Origin: a virus
DNA length: 46,158 nt
Direction: 5' to 3' (one strand)
IMG/VR virus record: IMGVR_UViG_3300010356_000385
The translations under genes and the position numbers were made by a program. This document shows, in pieces, positions 150-40,026 of the stretch (positions are counted from its first letter, which is position 1; each line of letters opens with the position of its first letter). The notes under the pieces were generated by a model, which was not told the DNA's origin, did not search any database, and was given only the letters and a program-made list of their open reading frames with translations.

Positions 150-418
150 CTTAATTTAGATAAAACTCTGTTTAATGTCATACCTCCTATAAACCAGATA
201 TACTCCTCTACAGTTTTACAATCGTGGGTTATTTTTATATGTTTGAATTTCTCGGTATCACCCTTGTACTTCATACCCTCTATTATATTTACCGTTCTAT
301 CCCTTTCCTCTTCCCTTGCTTTGTCTAGTTCTTTCAAAACAAACTCTGTTAGCATATCTAAATCACTGTAATCTCCAATATAACTATTTAGCCTTTCCCT
401 TAGTTCTTCTTTCTTCAT
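143..418 (-). CDS. Hypothetical protein (91 aa)
   Basis: ATG-initiated ORF in the tightly packed leftward arm. It shares an ELDKAREE motif with the product of 45559..46146. Confidence 0.6.
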   Translation of the reverse strand: MKKEELRERLNSYIGDYSDLDMLTEFVLKELDKAREEERDRTVNIIEGMKYKGDTEKFKHIKITHDCKTVEEYIWFIGGMTLNRVLSKLRQ

Positions 419-1102: not shown

Positions 1103-1398
1103 TCTTTAATAACTCGGTCTGGAGTGCCACGAGGACATTACCCTCTCCAATTCGTGTCCACCCGTCCCTAACAATGTATTAGTTATAGGTTTCGAAGTTC
1201 CACACTCCCCACCAAGCTATCAAAGAACATACTCAATGAGATACTCTATGTTTGAGACGAGATCGAAGACTCCATAGAGTACCTCACTCAATACCTTAAA
1301 GAACATACTCTGGCTGTTGATTTTACTTTCCATATATATCTGGTAGTAGGGACAACATTTGCCAACGTTTCACCCTCTTTACGTTGCACCATAAAGTC
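1103..1398 (-). ncRNA. Candidate structured RNA or 3' UTR downstream of rsr
   Basis: Part of a 372-nt ORF-free gap, far larger than the 10-60-nt spacers elsewhere. GAGTATGTTCTTT occurs twice on the minus strand. An 11-bp stem pairs GGTACTCTATG with CATAGAGTATC, and a GGAC..GTCC stem is also present. Confidence 0.3.
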
Positions 1399-2826
1399 TT
1401 ACTCTAGCACTATCGATTTAATATACTCAACCATAGAACCTCCTTTTTCATATATTCCAATAAAGTCTAATAGTCTATCCGACCAACCTGTTAAGTGTAT
1501 TACTCTTTGGCTTGAAATATCTTTAGTTCCGTATCCTTCAATATCTATTGCGTATACATAAGGATCTATTTTCATAATATTCTTATATTGGTTATACTGT
1601 GCTTGTGTACCACCTTCTCTTCCATACCAACCATAACTATCTGCCCAAGACTCGTTATCAGAAATTATGATTATTCTGTCGTATTCCTTTCTCTTGTCCT
1701 CTGCATATGCAAAAACTAAAGATGTATTTGTACCACCACCCCTAGCCTCCGATTGTATCTTCTTTGCTAAATCTATTACTGGCATTCTACTAGAAAATGC
1801 AAACTCGTAAACGCTTGTATCATAAAGAATTAGATCTGCATTTACGTTTGCCTTTGCCAACGTAGATCCAAAGATAGAAGCTATTTCCATTGGTCTTCCA
1901 CTCATTGATCCAGAACAGTCAATAGCTATCAATGTACTACCATTTAATTCTGGAGTATTGTCTACTGCATAATCCATAGCTACAGATATTGCGTCTGTTA
2001 ATTGTCTGTTTCCACTTACATTGTCGTATGCAGTAACAAACCTAAATGGTAATTGTTTAGACCTTTTAACCTCTTCTCTGTCTGTTAGCTTGGCTATAGC
2101 CTTATTTAGAACCTCTTGAGATACGTCGTTCTTAATGAGGTTGTTTAAATTTCTAAGTAATGCCATATATCCCATTTTGTTTTCTAGTATTAGCTTCTCC
2201 CAATTATCTTTCTTGTTCTCGGCGTTAGAAGATGAAATTACCGCCTCCCAAGTTTTACCTGTTGATTTCAAGTTTCCCTCAATCAAATCCTTCCAAGCCT
2301 TTTGTTGCTCTTCTGTCGCAAATTGAGGCTTTGGGTGAACCATATTAAATATGTCTACCAGTTTAACCTCCTTCTTTTCTCCTCTATATTTAGCTAGTTT
2401 GTATGGAGAGAATTTGTATAAAGCTCTTCTAATACCTCTTTTTACCTGCTTTGGTAGTTTACACTCTAAGTATGAAGCTAACTCTGTTAGATCATCAACC
2501 CTTGTAACGGTGTTTTTAATAGCCCTCATTACAAGATCATCTCCTTTGTGTATTTTGGCCAACTCTCCTAAGAGCACAGTTGATACACTTCTTAGATTGA
2601 ACTCTATCCTTGATACATACGCTAGGTTTGCGACAAAAACAGGATCGCACTTTGCGACCAAACCCTGTATTCTTGTGAGTCTGTTGTCTCCACTCTCGTA
2701 ATACTTGTCATCTAGAAATGTTGTTAGAACTGCGTGTAGCAATTCTTGCTCTGCGTTCATTTTAAACGCTTTTCCACCAGCTTTGTTGGTAGTGGTGTTG
2801 TCTACCTTTGTGTTAAATCTTGACAT
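1399..2826 (-). CDS. rsr: Ro60/Rsr orthologue (TROVE domain plus vWA domain), 475 aa
   Basis: Several strings align with Ro60 landmarks. MGYMALLRNLNNL matches MPLTALLRNLGKM and KQLPFRFVTAY matches ARIHPFHILIA. LIAIDCSGSM is a MIDAS DxSxS motif. GGGTNTSL, IIISDNESWA and LTGWSDRLLDFI also match. Confidence 0.9.
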   Translation of the reverse strand: MSRFNTKVDNTTTNKAGGKAFKMNAEQELLHAVLTTFLDDKYYESGDNRLTRIQGLVAKCDPVFVANLAYVSRIEFNLRSVSTVLLGELAKIHKGDDLVMRAIKNTVTRVDDLTELASYLECKLPKQVKRGIRRALYKFSPYKLAKYRGEKKEVKLVDIFNMVHPKPQFATEEQQKAWKDLIEGNLKSTGKTWEAVISSSNAENKKDNWEKLILENKMGYMALLRNLNNLIKNDVSQEVLNKAIAKLTDREEVKRSKQLPFRFVTAYDNVSGNRQLTDAISVAMDYAVDNTPELNGSTLIAIDCSGSMSGRPMEIASIFGSTLAKANVNADLILYDTSVYEFAFSSRMPVIDLAKKIQSEARGGGTNTSLVFAYAEDKRKEYDRIIIISDNESWADSYGWYGREGGTQAQYNQYKNIMKIDPYVYAIDIEGYGTKDISSQRVIHLTGWSDRLLDFIGIYEKGGSMVEYIKSIVLE

Positions 2827-3149
2827 AGATTTAATAATAAAAATTTAAGGGGAAAGTAAAGTACGGAAATAACGAGCATCACGTTGTGCTTCATGACCAG
2901 AAGTAACCGTACTTATTACCACCCATTAAGGAGGAAAAAGGTGGAACAGCACGTTTTGAATCCGCAGTTCGAAGTATCTGTTCCTTTACCCTCCTTAGCG
3001 AGAGGTAATAGGGGTAAACGAGGTCGGTAATATATGACTTGTATATATTAGACAAGGAATTAATGTCTCCCGACTTGGCACAGGCATTCACCTGTAGGAG
3101 TCGCCGAAGCGACAGTTTCAATGATTATTGAAGTAACCGACCTCTCACC

Positions 3150-3262
3150 ACCAGTTCAGTAGGGGCGAACAGTACAACAGCTTAAACCCTTTCGGGAGTA
3201 TAGGGATCGAACCTACTAATTTCTTGGAAAGAAATCTTAGCCAGAAGTATCTGTTGTTTCGC
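3150..3262 (-). ncRNA. Second, degenerate tRNA-like module
   Basis: On the minus strand there is a 7-bp hairpin ATTTCTT-TCC-AAGAAAT. A T-arm GTAGG-TTCGATC-CCTAT (3216-3200) follows, then a CCC-GAAA-GGG hairpin (3196-3187). The D-arm is not canonical. Confidence 0.4.
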
Positions 3263-3269
3263 ACCCCCT

Positions 3270-3398
3270 GATGTAGGGGTCAAGTGTTACAGTATATTTA
3301 GCGCTCTACCATCTGAGCTAACGCCCGAAGGCGTGTTGGATTTGAACCAACGACCTCTCCTTTATCATAGGAAGTAACTGTAACTTAACCCTACTAAA
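3270..3398 (-). ncRNA. yrlA: YrlA-type Y RNA candidate with a circularly permuted tRNA-like domain
   Basis: The minus strand reads AGGTC, then the T-arm GTTGG-TTCAAAT-CCAAC. Next is a closed acceptor hairpin ACGCC-TTCG-GGCGT, then TA, then the D-arm GCTC-AGATGGTA-GAGC (3356-3301). An imperfect long stem closes the module: GTAGGG/CCCTAC, AAG/CTT and TTACAG/CTGTAA (3394-3376 with 3296-3273). Confidence 0.7.
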
Positions 3399-3700
3399 CC
3401 AGTGGCGACCTTAATTTTAAAAGAACTGTTAGGTACTCTAAGACCCACACATTCACCACCTAGGCTGGTAATATGTGAGTTACCCGTTTGTACGAACAGG
3501 TAAAGGGCGACTTAGTAACGGTGTATAGCCTGAGTCCGTGTCCCTCCTTGTTCTGTATCCCTTTCACAGAGCACAGGTCGAGTTATATACCTCGCTATGT
3601 TGCGCTATACAGGTCTTACAATACCCAACTTTTAAAGAACTACTTTGTCCACTCTTGCCAAGTTTCTAGTAATATCTCGCCGATCATAGCAAGAAGACCA

Positions 3701-3741
3701 AAAACTATTGGGAGTACTACATACAAAAGGATTGGTACTCC
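3701..3741 (-). terminator. Intrinsic terminator candidate after gene 3768..4211
   Basis: 7-bp stem GGAGTAC..GTACTCC, followed on the minus strand by CAATAGTTTTT. Confidence 0.5.
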
Positions 3742-3767
3742 TACAATCACTAACAATATCGTCATAT

Positions 3768-4211
3768 TCAATATCTCTCATTAAATACAAAATAACCGCC
3801 TTTTAATTCTCTTTTTCGTCTAATTCTTTTAGTAGACTCGTCGGCGTCAAGATCTGGATTTAACTCTTGAACTTTTCTTCTAGCCCTAGTTATTGTCTCT
3901 GGCGTTGGACATATTAGAAAATTTTCATAATCAAGCATACCGTCTTTTAAGTGTCCCATACTCTGGTACACCGCCCATATTAGTCTCCTATCACTTGATC
4001 TTGCTTCTTTATCTTGTTCTAGTATCAACTTTACTAGATCATACATACTTCCTTTATTTGGCTTCCTGTATATGCTTTCTTTATTTTTCACTTCGGGTAT
4101 GTCTTCCCTAACATACTCTACTCCACAACCCTCCCCGCAGTCGCTACACCTACCTATAAACCCATTCGAGCCTATAACTTTAGCACCACAACAGTTACTT
4201 ACTTCGACCAT
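3768..4211 (-). CDS. Hypothetical protein with a Cys-rich zinc-ribbon-like N-terminus (147 aa)
   Basis: CCGAKV..CSDCGEGCG cysteine cluster and a basic C-terminal half. Confidence 0.65.
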   Translation of the reverse strand: MVEVSNCCGAKVIGSNGFIGRCSDCGEGCGVEYVREDIPEVKNKESIYRKPNKGSMYDLVKLILEQDKEARSSDRRLIWAVYQSMGHLKDGMLDYENFLICPTPETITRARRKVQELNPDLDADESTKRIRRKRELKGGYFVFNERY

Positions 4212-4215
4212 AGTA

Positions 4216-4398
4216 TTAACTTGTTATTTTAATTATGAACCTTTCCCTTTCCTCAGCGACCTTTTGAGTTCCAAGGAGGGGGAAAGATCCATCGGGTGGT
4301 ACTGCTAAACCACCTTGGGGTGATGGATCGTGTGTTAAAGAACTGTAGTTTTTAACTACGGGGATATTATACCACACTTGACCCTTGTAGTCAAACAT
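4216..4398 (-). CDS. Hypothetical protein (60 aa)
   Basis: ATG ORF that fills the gap between neighbouring genes, with an 8-nt overlap with the upstream gene. Confidence 0.4.
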   Translation of the reverse strand: MFDYKGQVWYNIPVVKNYSSLTHDPSPQGGLAVPPDGSFPLLGTQKVAEERERFIIKITS

Positions 4399-4579
4399 AT
4401 AGATTGTTAAGAACCAACCAGTCTTTCATAGCTCCGATAGCGGTATCTTTAGAGTATGCCCCTATTTTTACCACCCTCTCTCCCTCTTTGAGTAACTCCA
4501 TACTGAACCCTTCCTTTGCTTTGATCCATTGTATTTTGTAGTTACTCGGGATCTTCTTGTTGAGTTGTGTTATTGTCAT
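4391..4579 (-). CDS. Hypothetical protein (62 aa)
   Basis: ATG ORF in the operon. Confidence 0.5.
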   Translation of the reverse strand: MTITQLNKKIPSNYKIQWIKAKEGFSMELLKEGERVVKIGAYSKDTAIGAMKDWLVLNNLYV

Positions 4580-8953: not shown

Positions 8954-8977
8954 TTTAGTTATTTTAAAAATTATATA

Positions 8978-12410: not shown

Positions 12411-12657
12411 TGATGATAATGGTATTAGTGGTACTGGGGTAGTGTTAGACGGGGTAATATTTCCAAATGGTAGGGTGGTGGTGTGTTGGAAAGCTGGTAA
12501 TGGTAAAAGTAAGTGTGGTAGTATTAATATATACGACAGTATAGAGGATTTTGAGGACATTCATGTGACTCATCATCCTGGGAATGGGACAGAATTAGTG
12601 GGTTATGATCTTGATGCGGAGGTAGAGCAGCGGCAGCTTGCTAGTCTCATAAACTAG
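12373..12657 (+). CDS. Hypothetical protein (94 aa from the ATG at 12373)
   Basis: GGAGGTGG lies 4 nt upstream of the ATG, whereas the track start at 12337 is GTG. The last 14 codons run into tRNA-Met. Confidence 0.5.
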   Translation: MEQMIPFQMIRHNDDNGISGTGVVLDGVIFPNGRVVVCWKAGNGKSKCGSINIYDSIEDFEDIHVTHHPGNGTELVGYDLDAEVEQRQLASLIN

Positions 12658-12690
12658 AGGTCAGGGGTTCGAGTCCCCTCCCCGCAACCA
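12614..12690 (+). tRNA. tRNA-Met: tRNA-Met (anticodon CAT; elongator or Ile2-type), CCA encoded
   Basis: Anticodon arm CTAGT-CTCATAA-ACTAG, T-arm AGGGG-TTCGAGT-CCCCT, acceptor TGCGGAG/CCCCGCA, then A and CCA. Confidence 0.85.
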
Positions 12691-12701
12691 GCTCTTTAAC
12701 A

Positions 12702-12775
12702 GGTGGCGTAGCCCAATTGGCAGAGGCTCCGATCTCAAAAATCGGCCAGTGTTGGTTCGAGTCCAGCCGTCACTA
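12702..12775 (+). tRNA. tRNA-Leu-like: Class-I-shaped tRNA with Leu anticodon CAA (74 nt, 5-nt variable loop, no encoded CCA)
   Basis: Reads GGTGGCG TA GCC-CAATTGGCAGA-GGC T CCGAT-CTCAAAA-ATCGG CCAGT GTTGG-TTCGAGT-CCAGC CGTCACT A. Confidence 0.8.
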
Positions 12776-12776
12776 A

Positions 12777-12850
12777 GCGCGTGTATCCCAATTGGCAGAG
12801 GAAGCTGTCTTAGAAACAGTTGAGTGCAAGTTCGAGTCTTGCCATGCGCA
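12777..12850 (+). tRNA. tRNA-Leu-like: Class-I-shaped tRNA with Leu anticodon TAG (74 nt, no encoded CCA)
   Basis: Reads GCGCGTG TA TCC-CAATTGGCAGA-GGA A GCTGT-CTTAGAA-ACAGT TGAGT GCAAG-TTCGAGT-CTTGC CATGCGC A. Confidence 0.8.
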
Positions 12851-12854
12851 CTTT

Positions 12855-12928
12855 GGATAGGTAGTCCAATTGGCAGAGACAGCGGACTTAAAATCCGTCC
12901 AGTGAGAGTTCGACTCTCTCCCTATCTA
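12855..12928 (+). tRNA. tRNA-Leu-like: Class-I-shaped tRNA with Leu anticodon TAA (74 nt, no encoded CCA)
   Basis: Reads GGATAGG TA GTC-CAATTGGCAGA-GAC A GCGGA-CTTAAAA-TCCGT CCAGT GAGAG-TTCGACT-CTCTC CCTATCT A. Confidence 0.8.
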
Positions 12929-12929
12929 C

Positions 12930-13013
12930 GGAAGATTGGCAGAGTGGTAATGCAGCAGTCTTGAAAACTGTAACGGTTAAATGCCGTCAGAGGTTCGAAT
13001 CCTTTATCTTCCG
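12930..13013 (+). tRNA. tRNA-Ser: tRNA-Ser (TGA), class II
   Basis: Anticodon arm GCAGT-CTTGAAA-ACTGT, long variable arm AACGGTTAAATGCCGTC, T-arm AGAGG-TTCGAAT-CCTTT, discriminator G. Confidence 0.85.
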
Positions 13014-13015
13014 CT

Positions 13016-13103
13016 GGAAAGTTGACAGAGCGGCTGATTGTGCTTCTTTGCTAAAGAAGTGGGTGTAAAAGCCTCGTGGGTTCGAATCCTACACTTTCCG
13101 CCA
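13016..13103 (+). tRNA. tRNA-Ser: tRNA-Ser (GCT), class II, CCA encoded
   Basis: Anticodon arm CTTCT-TTGCTAA-AGAAG, long variable arm, T-arm GTGGG-TTCGAAT-CCTAC, acceptor GGAAAGT/ACTTTCC, then G and CCA. Confidence 0.85.
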
Positions 13104-13104
13104 A

Positions 13105-13191
13105 GCAAGTACTGTAGAGACGGTGAGCTACGCTTGTCTGTAAAACAAGTCCTTTCGGGGTGTATAGGTTCGAATCCTATTACTTGCACCA
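13105..13191 (+). tRNA. tRNA-Tyr: tRNA-Tyr (GTA), class II, CCA encoded
   Basis: Anticodon arm CTTGT-CTGTAAA-ACAAG, variable arm TCCTTTCGGGGTGT, acceptor GCAAGTA/TACTTGC, then A and CCA. Confidence 0.85.
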
Positions 13192-13234
13192 GTGTTATTA
13201 GAATGGTATAAAATATTAAGATCTTTAAAAACAT

Positions 13235-13309
13235 GGTGGATATGGTTTATTGGTAAAATACCCTGCTGTGAACAAAGAGAAATTGGTTCGATTCCAATTA
13301 TCTACCCCA
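13235..13309 (+). tRNA. tRNA-His: tRNA-His (GTG) with genome-encoded G-1, CCA encoded
   Basis: An extra 5' G lies opposite discriminator C. Anticodon loop is CTGTGAA and the T-arm is ATTGG-TTCGATT-CCAAT. The anticodon stem CCCTG/CAAAG has two C-A mismatches. Confidence 0.7.
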
Positions 13310-13310
13310 T

Positions 13311-13386
13311 GCGAGATTCGTTTAATGGATCAGGATGACTGCCTTCCAAGCAGTGGGTATGGGTTCGATTCCCATATCTCGCACCA
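13311..13386 (+). tRNA. tRNA-Gly: tRNA-Gly (TCC), CCA encoded
   Basis: Anticodon arm ACTGC-CTTCCAA-GCAGT, T-arm ATGGG-TTCGATT-CCCAT, acceptor GCGAGAT/ATCTCGC. The D-stem is weak. Confidence 0.8.
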
Positions 13387-13387
13387 G

Positions 13388-13462
13388 GCTTCTGTAGCTT
13401 AACAGGTAAAGCTGCTGATTTGTAACCAGCCGTTTGAGGTTCGAGTCCTTGCAGAAGCTCCA
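13388..13462 (+). tRNA. tRNA-Thr: tRNA-Thr (TGT), CCA encoded
   Basis: Anticodon loop TTTGTAA, D-arm GCTT-AACAGGTA-AAGC, T-arm TGAGG-TTCGAGT-CCTTG, acceptor GCTTCTG/CAGAAGC. Confidence 0.8.
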
Positions 13463-13463
13463 T

Positions 13464-13538
13464 TAGGGAGTGGTCAAATGGTAAGACGACTGGCTTTGAA
13501 CCAGTAGACTCTAGGTTCGATTCCTAGTTCCCTAACCA
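13464..13538 (+). tRNA. tRNA-Gln: tRNA-Gln (TTG), CCA encoded
   Basis: Anticodon arm ACTGG-CTTTGAA-CCAGT, T-arm CTAGG-TTCGATT-CCTAG. Confidence 0.85.
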
Positions 13539-13539
13539 T

Positions 13540-13614
13540 GGGCTTATAGGCTAATTGGAAAACTATGTCACTTGCAATGACAAGTTCTGAGTTCGATTCT
13601 CAGTAGGTCCACCA
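13540..13614 (+). tRNA. tRNA-Ala: tRNA-Ala (TGC) with a G3-U70 pair, CCA encoded
   Basis: Anticodon arm TGTCA-CTTGCAA-TGACA. Acceptor GGGCTTA/TAGGTCC places a G-T pair at position 3-70. The D-arm is degenerate. Confidence 0.7.
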
Positions 13615-39993: not shown

Positions 39994-40026
39994 TTAGTTC
40001 TTTAAAATTTAACTGGGCCATTCCTT

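What the first reader, a model, noticed from the sequence alone, without database searches (positions are those of the whole stretch)
3270..3398. Circularly permuted tRNA-like domain (T-arm, closed acceptor hairpin, D-arm): the YrlA signature
Seen in sequence on the minus strand from 3356 to 3301. AGGTC is followed by GTTGG-TTCAAAT-CCAAC, a canonical T-arm. ACGCC-TTCG-GGCGT follows, an acceptor-like stem capped by a UUCG loop instead of free ends. Then come TA and GCTC-AGATGGTA-GAGC, a canonical D-arm with GG. The order T-arm, acceptor, D-arm is a permuted tRNA. The module is closed by an imperfect long helix with an internal loop and a bulge: GTAGGG/CCCTAC, AAG/CTT and TTACAG/CTGTAA. Established knowledge: YrlA RNAs have exactly this architecture, a Ro-binding stem formed by the ends plus a tRNA-like effector domain. 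Inference: this is the cognate Y RNA of the adjacent rsr, about 120-130 nt long.
Basis: partly seen in the sequence, partly recalled or inferred. Interest (0 to 1): 0.8.

Follow-up and report, generated by a model that had tools for sequence, protein, structure and literature searches.

The report
Phage tRNA-like Y RNA beside rsr
Just upstream of its Ro60-like gene (rsr), a tailed phage encodes a ~120-nt non-coding RNA whose core is a rearranged tRNA look-alike. It is a divergent new example of the already described YrlA-type Y RNAs, and it is one of about five such RNA modules in a row.

Summary
On the minus strand, 3394-3273 reads: 5' stem strand, UUAC, a hairpin, AGGUC, T-arm, UUCG-capped acceptor-like hairpin, UA, D-arm, linker, 3' stem strand. 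The pattern occurs once in the window and never in shuffles. The fold has z = -4.2, and Rfam's YrlA model matches it end to end (37.7 bits, local E 1e-6), though below the curated cut-off of 69.

It lies 447 nt upstream of an intact rsr on the same strand. A covariance model built here finds the same module next to rsr in about 200 phage, metagenome and bacterial loci. Covariation is strong in the T stem, the acceptor hairpin, the closing helix and the tertiary 15-48 pair.

So the YrlA reading is supported. Phage YrlA-like RNAs have been published since 2014, so this is a new member of a known kind.

- The hairpin before AGGUC has exact anticodon-arm geometry, so all four tRNA arms are present.
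- The RNA is the first of about five Y-like modules in an 813-940 nt gene-free gap.
- Modules 1 and 2 are bracketed by a conserved, covarying 20-bp helix.

Expression and Rsr binding are untested.

The parts
3273..3394 (-). Module 1: the complete tRNA-like (YrlA-type) Y RNA, about 122 nt. This is the finding.
   Evidence: Rfam YrlA 37.7 bits, E 1.2e-6; MFE z -4.2; model R1 116 bits, though it is a seed member.
3378..3394 (-). 5' strand of the closing (presumed Rsr-binding) stem: GUAGGG-UUAAG-UUACAG.
   Evidence: Orthologous 'stem A' modules in six relatives keep it, with 6 pairs changed on both sides. Family-wide, the upper helix is 92% paired.
3273..3292 (-). 3' strand of the closing stem: CUGUAA-(CA)-CUUGA-(C)-CCCUAC.
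3374..3377 (-). UUAC, the YUAY motif conserved in YrlA RNAs.
   Evidence: Nearly invariant in alignment A2. YUAY is described in PMC4201824.
3357..3373 (-). Hairpin UUCCU-AUGAUAA-AGGAG (the published 'V' stem-loop): 5 bp plus a 7-nt loop, i.e. anticodon-arm geometry with U at position 33 and A at 37 and 38.
   Evidence: (the Rfam tRNA model aligns it to the anticodon arm).
3352..3356 (-). AGGUC, a 5-nt variable loop. Its C (position 48) is the partner of G15 at 3313.
   Evidence: The 15-48 pair is G-C or A-U in 192 of 206 modules, against 123 expected if independent.
3335..3351 (-). T-arm GUUGG-UUCAAAU-CCAAC.
   Evidence: 99% paired, 4 of 5 pairs covary.
3321..3334 (-). Acceptor-like hairpin ACGCC-UUCG-GGCGU, closed, with no free ends and no CCA.
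   Evidence: In the family 7 of 7 pairs covary, 93-95% paired.
3303..3320 (-). UA linker (tRNA positions 8-9) plus D-arm GCUC-AGAUGGUA-GAGC, with A14, G15, G18 and G19.
   Evidence: 98-100% paired, nearly invariant.
3162..3268 (-). Module 2: a Y-like RNA with stem GGGGGUGCGAA.../...UUCGCCCC (CGAA at 3261-3258), a T-arm at 3216-3200 and a short CCC-GAAA-GGG hairpin, but no D-arm. It looks like a degenerate tRNA-like module.
   Evidence: Fold z -3.1. R1 matches its V hairpin and T-arm at 9.8 bits. In relatives this stem carries the complete tRNA-like domain.
3011..3152 (-). Module 3: a long closing stem followed by UUAC, with five internal hairpins.
   Evidence: Fold z -5.2. R1 with filters off gives 13.3 bits, E 0.003.
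2935..2995 (-). Module 4: a short hairpin-type Y-like RNA (stem plus AUAC plus a small loop), like YrlB.
   Evidence: R1 with filters off gives 21.3 bits, E 1.8e-5 from the stem and YUAC alone. The fold is weak, z -1.4.
2850..2924 (-). Module 5: the rsr-proximal Y-like RNA (GGGUGGUAAUAAGUACGG-UUAC...).
   Evidence: Conserved as the last module in relatives. 7 pairs are changed on both sides, 5 of them in the closing stem. Fold z -2.3.
3389..3408 (-). 5' strand of the 20-bp helix that brackets modules 1 and 2. It overlaps the base of module 1.
   Evidence: 19-21 contiguous pairs in 11 arrays, with changes on both sides at 6 positions. It forms in the MFE fold of the whole gap.
3145..3164 (-). 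3' strand of the bracketing helix. It overlaps the 3' end of module 2 and the 5' strand of module 3.
1399..2826 (-). rsr: a 475-aa Ro60 orthologue (TROVE plus Ro60-type vWA with a DxSGS metal site).
   Evidence: Pfam TROVE 2e-22, vWA_Ro60 2.7e-9. The best solved relative is Thermus phage phiLo Ro60, 9KOP/9L5Y, E 4e-25. 1106 homologues at E <= 1e-10.

Best explanation
Window 3394-3273 (minus strand) encodes a YrlA-type Y RNA of a tailed phage.

What the sequence shows:
- The 5' and 3' ends pair into a long bulged stem.
- The middle is a circularly permuted tRNA: anticodon-arm-like hairpin, 5-nt variable loop, T-arm, acceptor stem closed by UUCG, U8-A9, D-arm.
- All nucleotides needed for the tRNA L-shape are present: G18/G19 with U55/C56, U54-A58, G15-C48, G53-C61, and U8/A14.

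Inferred from the characterised systems (D. radiodurans, S. Typhimurium, M. smegmatis, Thermus phage phiLo):
- It is transcribed from the minus strand with four more Y-like modules and probably rsr, as one precursor that is then cut into separate RNAs.
- The terminal stem docks on the phage Rsr ring.
- The tRNA-like domain is read by host tRNA enzymes and acts as the effector end. It would tether Rsr to a host partner such as PNPase or another tRNA-elbow-binding protein, so that structured RNAs are fed to a nuclease during infection.
- The other modules, with the same kind of stem but different inner domains, would give the one Rsr protein several alternative partners.
For: Anatomy and non-randomness.

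Homology to YrlA: (full-length alignment, E 1.2e-6).

Linkage to an intact rsr: it lies 447 nt upstream on the same strand.

Recurrence next to rsr:
- 33 of the viral loci by regular expression, every acceptor hairpin different but paired.
- Model R1 finds full-length copies in 45 viral, 67 metagenomic and about 91 bacterial-genome modules.

Covariation:
- 81.7% and 81.8% of cells paired, against 59% when shuffled and 38-50% when slid. 34 of 38 pairs change on both sides; 0 of 500 shuffles reach this. One search is an independent set with no seed members.
- The tertiary 15-48 pair is compatible in 192 of 206 modules, against 123 expected.
- Orthologous stem A covaries.

Array context: the whole gap folds with z = -7.6; modules individually.

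Published behaviour of the kind:
- PMC4201824: YrlA RNAs in 254 bacteria and 22 phages, TruB/DusA substrates, and two Y RNAs upstream of rsr from one precursor in M. smegmatis.
- PMC12135203: phage phiLo Ro60 binds two upstream Y-like RNAs and host PNPase.
Against: - There are no expression data, so strand, ends and stability are inferred.
- The Rfam score is 37.7 against a cut-off of 69.
- The presumed Rsr-contact motif GNCGAAN0-1G reads GGUUAAG in this module, so Rsr binding of this particular module is not assured. Module 2 has CGAA.
- The basal 6 bp of the stem compete with a conserved 20-bp long-range helix.
- In most close relatives the tRNA-like domain sits on the neighbouring stem, and stem A carries only a short loop. 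The arrangement in the window is therefore a recent rearrangement.
- No effector partner of any YrlA tRNA-like domain is established.
- No sigma-70 promoter or terminator was detected.
Confidence: 0.85

Rival explanations
1. The structured array is only a cis-acting leader (5' UTR) of the rsr mRNA, controlling its stability or translation. No stable trans-acting ~120-nt RNA is made.
For: The modules lie directly upstream of rsr on the same strand, with no recognisable terminator between them. Module 5 ends 23 nt before the ATG.
Against: A leader needs no tRNA tertiary nucleotides, yet the 15-48 pair covaries. In Bacteroidota the same module lies downstream of rsr. In M. smegmatis upstream Y RNAs are excised from a precursor and bound by Rsr.
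Confidence: 0.07
2. It is a decayed remnant of two adjacent tRNA genes (the 3' two-thirds of one plus the 5' third of the next) with no function of its own.
For: Tandem tRNA genes in the window and in relatives match R1 positions 31-108. The phage has a 15-tRNA array. In L062 a real tRNA-Pro is fused to the D-arm half of a module.
Against: The acceptor-like stem is a closed hairpin whose two strands covary across about 200 loci. The module is always enclosed by a covarying terminal stem and linked to rsr. A pseudogene would not keep this. This route may explain the family's origin, not its present state.
Confidence: 0.03
3. It is a circularly permuted tRNA gene that is processed, by cleavage in the UUCG hairpin and joining of the outer ends, into a working tRNA with anticodon GAU.
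For: All four arms are present in permuted order. M. smegmatis YrlA is cut by RNase P and receives CCA.
Against: - The acceptor stem is only 5 bp plus a tetraloop, with no discriminator or CCA.
- The outer ends form a 17-bp bulged stem, not a splice motif.
- ARAGORN calls nothing here.
- Loop triplets vary freely among relatives.
- NCCA follows a 7-bp stem in only 4 of 204 modules, about the chance level.
- From memory: bacteria are not known to have the machinery that matures permuted tRNAs.
Confidence: 0.02

Closest known systems
Salmonella Typhimurium YrlA (Rfam RF02553; tRNA-like domain solved, PDB 6CU1)
   Same: Terminal stem formed by the two ends. Order T-arm, closed acceptor-like hairpin, UA, D-arm. 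Conserved D and T sequences, YUAY, and the Levitt pair. Encoded beside rsr on the same strand.
   Different: - In Salmonella the Rsr-binding stem continues the anticodon-stem equivalent directly under the D-arm.
- Here those positions are closed into a 5-bp/7-nt hairpin, and the terminal stem is attached through 4-nt and 10-nt (3302-3293) single-stranded linkers. The Rfam alignment marks the AC-stem pairs as non-canonical.
- The motif reads GGUUAAG instead of GNCGAAG.
- It lies upstream of rsr with no rtcBA genes.
- The score is below the Rfam cut-off.
Mycobacterium smegmatis YrlA/YrlB
   Same: Both RNAs lie upstream of rsr and come from a single precursor. The second RNA keeps only a T-arm, like window module 2.
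   Different: M. smegmatis YrlA has a 7-bp acceptor stem, is cut by RNase P and gains CCA. The window's stem is 5 bp capped by UUCG. The window has about five modules, not two.
Thermus phage phiLo Yrl1/Yrl2 with phiRo60 (PMC12135203; PDB 9KOP, 9L5Y)
   Same: A phage-encoded Ro60 with Y-like RNAs immediately upstream. phiRo60 is the closest solved relative of the window's Rsr (E 4e-25). It binds host PNPase.
   Different: The phiLo RNAs were described as stem-bulge-stem RNAs with CGAA. The term 'tRNA-like' does not occur in that paper. Protein similarity is only remote, seen at the HMMER E-value level; identity was not measured.
Deinococcus radiodurans Yrn1/Yrn2 and the Rsr-Y RNA-PNPase (RYPER) complex
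   Same: Several small RNAs upstream of rsr, made as a polycistronic precursor. Yrn1 has a T-arm and a possible anticodon arm. It serves as the functional model for tethering.
   Different: Yrn1 lacks a full D-arm, and its 'anticodon' loop has 6 nt. No sequence similarity was detected by Rfam here.
Circularly permuted tRNA genes of the red alga Cyanidioschyzon merolae (from memory, not checked here)
   Same: The 3' part of the tRNA precedes the 5' part in the gene.
   Different: Those are matured into ordinary tRNAs through a circular intermediate. Here the acceptor end is sealed and the outer ends form a protein-binding stem.

Membership tests
Rfam RF02553 (YrlA) as curated | Bit score at or above the gathering cut-off (69 bits) | tested here: not met
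   37.7 bits, full-length, E 1.2e-6 locally; not reported at the gathering threshold. None of 20 related phage loci reaches it either. I therefore do not file it under RF02553 as curated, only as a significant remote match.
YrlA consensus of Chen et al. 2014 | Literal 5' motif GNCGAAN0-1G (the presumed Rsr contact) | tested here: not met
   The corresponding stretch is GGUUAAG (3390-3384), matching 5 of 7 positions. Module 2 has UGCGAAA with CGAA (3261-3258). The clade consensus in R1 is GGUAAGG.
tRNA-like Y RNA (YrlA type, broad kind) | Encoded close to rsr on the same strand | tested here: met
   The 3' end is at 3273 and the rsr start at 2826, same strand. The same linkage holds in about 200 loci.
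tRNA-like Y RNA (YrlA type, broad kind) | [quoted passage not shown] | tested here: met
   17 bp with two bulges. It covaries in orthologues and family-wide.
tRNA-like Y RNA (YrlA type, broad kind) | Near-invariant T and D stem-loops separated by a variable closed 'acceptor' hairpin and a UA linker | tested here: met
tRNA-like Y RNA (YrlA type, broad kind) | Nucleotides for tRNA tertiary contacts, including a covarying Levitt (15-48) pair; YUAY | tested here: met
   G15 (3313) with C48 (3352); G18G19 with U55C56; U54 with A58; UUAC at 3377-3374. The 15-48 pair is compatible in 192 of 206 modules, against 123 expected.
tRNA-like Y RNA (YrlA type, broad kind) | Bound by Rsr; modified by tRNA enzymes (TruB, DusA) | not testable with these tools
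   Needs RNA-protein binding and modification mapping.
Genuine tRNA gene | Cloverleaf in canonical order with free acceptor ends | tested here: not met
   ARAGORN tRNAs elsewhere and none here. The only Rfam tRNA hit at threshold (3327-3192) is a chimera of two modules with a 77-nt insert.

The most novel reading that the evidence does not exclude
In this phage lineage the tRNA-like Y RNA may be a complete four-armed tRNA opened at the 26/27 junction. Its closed anticodon arm (Y32, U33, mostly U36, A37, A38) would be a functional anticodon-loop mimic rather than a 'variable arm'. It would act as a decoy, sensor or substrate for host anticodon nucleases or anticodon-loop modification enzymes.

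Such modules would sit on interchangeable Rsr-binding stems in a multi-module array. A double-strand-specific nuclease would release them from one precursor by cutting a conserved 20-bp helix. Phage Rsr would then be part of the phage-host conflict over tRNAs, alongside the phage's own 15-tRNA array.
Probability: 0.2. Interest if true: 0.65.

Novelty: new member of a known kind. Interest (0 to 1): 0.35.

Why it matters
The finding adds a large, uncultured phage clade to the known range of tRNA-like Y RNAs. More than 120 Rsr clusters share at least 58% identity, and none has a close cultured or cellular relative. The curated Rfam model does not annotate any of these RNAs.

- In a third to more than half of modules the so-called V arm has exact anticodon-arm geometry and a conserved U33/A37/A38 loop.
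- Inner domains hop between conserved Rsr-binding stems.
- A covarying 20-bp helix brackets two modules.

None of this changes the basic picture published in 2014-2025, so the overall significance is modest.

Tried and rejected
- **DNA similarity to known phages.** blastn of 1300-4300 against 50,697 records found nothing, so comparative data had to come from protein-anchored loci.
- **Rfam at gathering threshold.** It gave no YrlA and one misleading 'tRNA' at 3327-3192. I considered a split tRNA with a 77-nt insert and rejected it. The two halves belong to different modules, the pairing is explained by the two hairpins being paralogous (ACGCC vs ACUCC), and relatives carry the tRNA-like domain on the other stem.
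- **MAFFT plus RNAalifold alone.** It recovered only the T, acceptor and D helices. The closing stem needed a covariance model.
- **An extra 'module 0' hairpin at 3462-3398.** z = -1.0, not supported.
- **Encoded NCCA after a 7-bp acceptor-like stem.** This would hint at RNase P/CCA-type maturation. It occurs in 4 of 204 modules, about the chance level, and was dropped.
- **Sigma-70 promoter and intrinsic terminator scan.** Nothing useful, and fewer hits than in shuffles.
- **Host assignment from cellular genomes.** The best match is 59% on a 2.3-kb contig binned as Saccharibacteria, and all others are 39% or less. This is too weak to name a host.

Full report
**1. The observation**

- 5' GUAGGG-UUAAG-UUACAG (3394-3378)
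- UUAC (3377-3374)
- UUCCU-AUGAUAA-AGGAG (3373-3357)
- AGGUC (3356-3352)
- GUUGG-UUCAAAU-CCAAC (3351-3335)
- ACGCC-UUCG-GGCGU (3334-3321)
- UA (3320-3319)
- GCUC-AGAUGGUA-GAGC (3318-3303)
- G plus a 9-nt linker
- CUGUAA-(CA)-CUUGA-(C)-CCCUAC (3292-3273)

An unconstrained fold of 3398-3270 returns this architecture at -43.4 kcal/mol. Shuffles give -27.8 +/- 3.7 (z -4.2, 0/200). A degenerate pattern for T-loop, 10-40 nt, then D-arm matches once in the window and in none of 100 shuffles. No ORF of 40 aa or more overlaps 3122-3487.

**2. What it is**

*Rfam and the neighbouring gene.*
- Rfam's YrlA model aligns to 3392-3273(-) over all 114 positions (37.7 bits, E 1.2e-6 in a 701-nt search). This is below the curated cut-off of 69, so the default scan is silent.
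- The ORF at 2826-1399(-), 447 nt downstream on the same strand, is a complete Ro60 orthologue: TROVE 2e-22 and Ro60-type vWA 2.7e-9.
- Its closest solved relative is the Ro60 of Thermus phage phiLo (E 4e-25).

*The phage.*
- The window is a tailed phage with terminase, head, adaptor and tail-fibre genes. It has a 15-tRNA array at 12.6-14.2 kb and about 39% G+C.
- It was assembled four times at about 46 kb.
- It has no DNA relative among 50,697 phage records.

*Distribution of Rsr.*
- Rsr homologues occur in 404 phage records, all below 40% identity.
- More than 120 metagenomic clusters share at least 58% identity.
- The best cellular genomes reach 39% or less, apart from one 2.3-kb binned contig.

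**3. Comparative test**

I fetched rsr loci from viral contigs, metagenomes, GTDB genomes and exact-protein look-ups.

A regular expression found T-arm, self-complementary hairpin, TA and D-arm upstream of rsr in 33 viral loci. The hairpin sequence differs in every locus but stays paired.

I aligned 24 modules (A2) and built the covariance model R1 with the window's structure. R1 finds full-length copies in three sets:
- 45 viral modules.
- 67 metagenomic modules, none used to build it.
- About 91 bacterial-genome modules. In Bacteroidota these lie downstream of rsr, often two to four in tandem.

Pair counts on the viral set and on the independent metagenomic set agree:

| Measure | Value |
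|---|---|
| Cells paired | 81.7% / 81.8% |
| Shuffled partners | 59% |
| Slid partners | 38-50% |
| Pairs changed on both sides | 34 of 38 |
| Shuffles reaching the observed score | 0 of 500 |
| T stem paired | 99% |
| Acceptor-like hairpin paired | 93-95%, all 7 pairs covary |
| D stem paired | 98-100% |
| Upper closing helix paired | 92% |

These alignments are fitted to the model, which favours it. However, the RNAalifold result on the plain MAFFT alignment already showed the T and acceptor covariation.

The tertiary Levitt pair covaries too: G15-C48 in 144 modules, A15-U48 in 48, anything else in 14 (192 of 206 compatible, against 123 expected). Orthologues of the window's own closing stem ('stem A'; L230 has the identical stem) show six pairs changed on both sides.

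The YrlA-type reading is therefore well supported.

**4.

*(a) The hairpin before AGGUC.* It is published as the 'V' stem-loop and interpreted as a variable arm, and YUAY begins it. Measured back from the T stem, it has exact anticodon-arm geometry: a 5-nt variable loop, a 5-bp stem and a 7-nt loop.
- This frame fits 26 of 44 viral, 26 of 55 metagenomic and 28 of 88 bacterial distinct modules.
- Every other loop size or frame fits 12 or fewer.
- The loop consensus is Y32-U33-N-N-(U/G)36-A37-A38.
- Rfam's tRNA model aligns it to the anticodon arm (16.9 bits, not significant alone).
- Real tRNAs match R1 from the start of this hairpin through the T-arm.
- In the window the positions that form the anticodon-stem equivalent in the Rfam consensus do not pair. 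The terminal stem is attached through single-stranded linkers.

So this module is a complete permuted tRNA opened at the 26/27 junction. In the solved Salmonella YrlA, by contrast, the Rsr-binding stem continues the anticodon stem. Which helix stacks on the D-stem is an inference that needs probing.

*(b) The RNA is not alone.* The gap between rsr and the next ORF of at least 130 aa (2827-3767) folds with z = -7.6. It contains five modules, each with a G-rich 5' strand, YUAC, an inner domain and a C-rich 3' strand:
- Module 1: 3394-3273.
- Module 2: 3268-3162. It has CGAA and a T-arm but no D-arm; z -3.1.
- Module 3: 3152-3011; z -5.2.
- Module 4: 2995-2935.
- Module 5: 2924-2850.

With filters off, R1 scores module 4 at 21.3 bits (E 1.8e-5) and module 3 at 13.3 bits (E 0.003) on stem plus YUAC alone. 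Module 5 is conserved in relatives, with seven pairs changed on both sides.

Relatives have three or four modules. In most of them the tRNA-like domain sits on the second stem (GGGGUGCGA...), while stem A carries a short loop. The inner domains therefore move between stems, and the window's module 2 looks like a decayed copy.

*(c) A 20-bp helix brackets modules 1 and 2.* Its strands are 3408-3389 and 3164-3145. It is kept in 11 arrays with 19-21 contiguous pairs, and both sides change at six positions. It excludes the basal pairs of modules 1 and 2, and it uses the 5' strand of module 3. A processing stem for a double-strand-specific nuclease is my inference.

**5. Mechanism**

Shown here: the sequence, the fold, the linkage to rsr and the covariation.

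Taken from the literature on relatives:
- Y RNA stems bind Ro60/Rsr.
- The other end binds effectors.
- D. radiodurans Y RNA tethers Rsr to PNPase.
- Salmonella YrlA is modified by TruB and DusA.
- M. smegmatis makes two upstream Y RNAs from one precursor.
- phiLo Ro60 binds two upstream Y-like RNAs and host PNPase.
- Hughes et al. suggested that the YrlA tRNA-like domain might competitively inhibit an anticodon nuclease.

Inferred for this window: co-transcription with rsr, excision, Rsr docking on the terminal stem, and recruitment of a host tRNA-binding partner by the tRNA-like domain.

Caveats:
- The presumed Rsr-contact motif is GGUUAAG rather than GNCGAAG.
- There are no expression data.
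- No partner is known for any YrlA.

**6. Comparison and novelty**

The structural definition of tRNA-like Y RNAs is met. The curated Rfam threshold and the literal 5' motif are not. I therefore file it as a new, divergent member of the published kind, not under RF02553 as curated.

Phage YrlA-like RNAs were reported in 22 phages in 2014, and a phage Ro60-Y RNA complex was solved in 2025. A specialist would not be surprised by the core finding. The anticodon-arm geometry, the domain shuffling and the bracketing helix are modest additions.

**7. Verdict**

The feature is real. Novelty is 'new member of a known kind' and interest is 0.35.

Noticed in passing
window 3327-3192 (-): Rfam's tRNA model passes its own gathering score here (30 vs 29 bits). 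It joins the D-arm half of module 1 to the T-arm half of module 2 across a 77-nt 'insert'. ARAGORN calls nothing. This is an annotation artefact of two paralogous tRNA-like halves.
   Followed up: yes
window 3408-3389 with 3164-3145 (-): A conserved 20-bp long-range helix brackets modules 1 and 2. It has 19-21 contiguous pairs in 11 related arrays and compensatory changes at 6 positions. It is mutually exclusive with the basal pairs of the modules. It may be a processing stem.
   Followed up: partly
window 3268-3162, 3152-3011, 2995-2935, 2924-2850 (-): Four further Y-RNA-like modules (long bulged stem plus YUAC plus a different inner domain) lie between the finding and rsr. Relatives have three or four, and the tRNA-like domain sits on different stems in different phages.
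   Followed up: partly
window 3629-3428 (-): A separate ~200-nt structured element closed by a long helix (z -3.6), with no Rfam match. Relatives L060 and L229 have an element of different sequence in the same slot. Its function is unknown.
   Followed up: partly
window 3427-3415(-), 3641-3629(-), 13219-13231(+), 39996-40008(+), 327-339(+), 8957-8969(+): The motif AGTTCTTTWAAAA occurs 6 times against 0.65 expected. In the window and its relatives a TAAAAT-like hexamer within it lies 5-7 nt before the first base of the bracketing helix. It may be a phage promoter element.
   Followed up: partly
L062 255-415 compared with L063 1-123: Two contigs encode the identical Rsr. In one, a genuine tRNA-Pro(UGG) replaces the 5' two-thirds of a tRNA-like Y module, joined 18 nt before the D-arm. 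This is either recombination between a tRNA gene and a Y RNA or an assembly chimera.
   Followed up: partly
L005 254-6055: In this relative (61% Rsr identity) the Y modules and rsr are embedded between two phage tRNA clusters (11 tRNAs). This suggests shared transcription or processing with tRNAs.
   Followed up: no
L163-L226 (Hymenobacter, Pontibacter and other Bacteroidota genomes), about 3000-4400: Bacterial loci carry two to four tandem tRNA-like Y modules downstream of rsr. Tandem arrays are therefore common outside phages too. None of 20 phage loci tested reaches the Rfam YrlA cut-off.
   Followed up: partly
window 12615-14193 (+): An array of 15 tRNA genes (Met, 3 Leu, 2 Ser, Tyr, His, Gly, Thr, Gln, Ala, Trp, Asp, Pro) lies on the opposite strand from rsr. 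There is no tRNA-Ile(GAU) to match the loop triplet of the Y RNA hairpin.
   Followed up: no
whole window; L235: The same ~46-kb genome was assembled in four data sets with different start points. The window is therefore probably a complete phage genome. The Rsr clade has no close cellular relative, and the host is unknown.
   Followed up: partly
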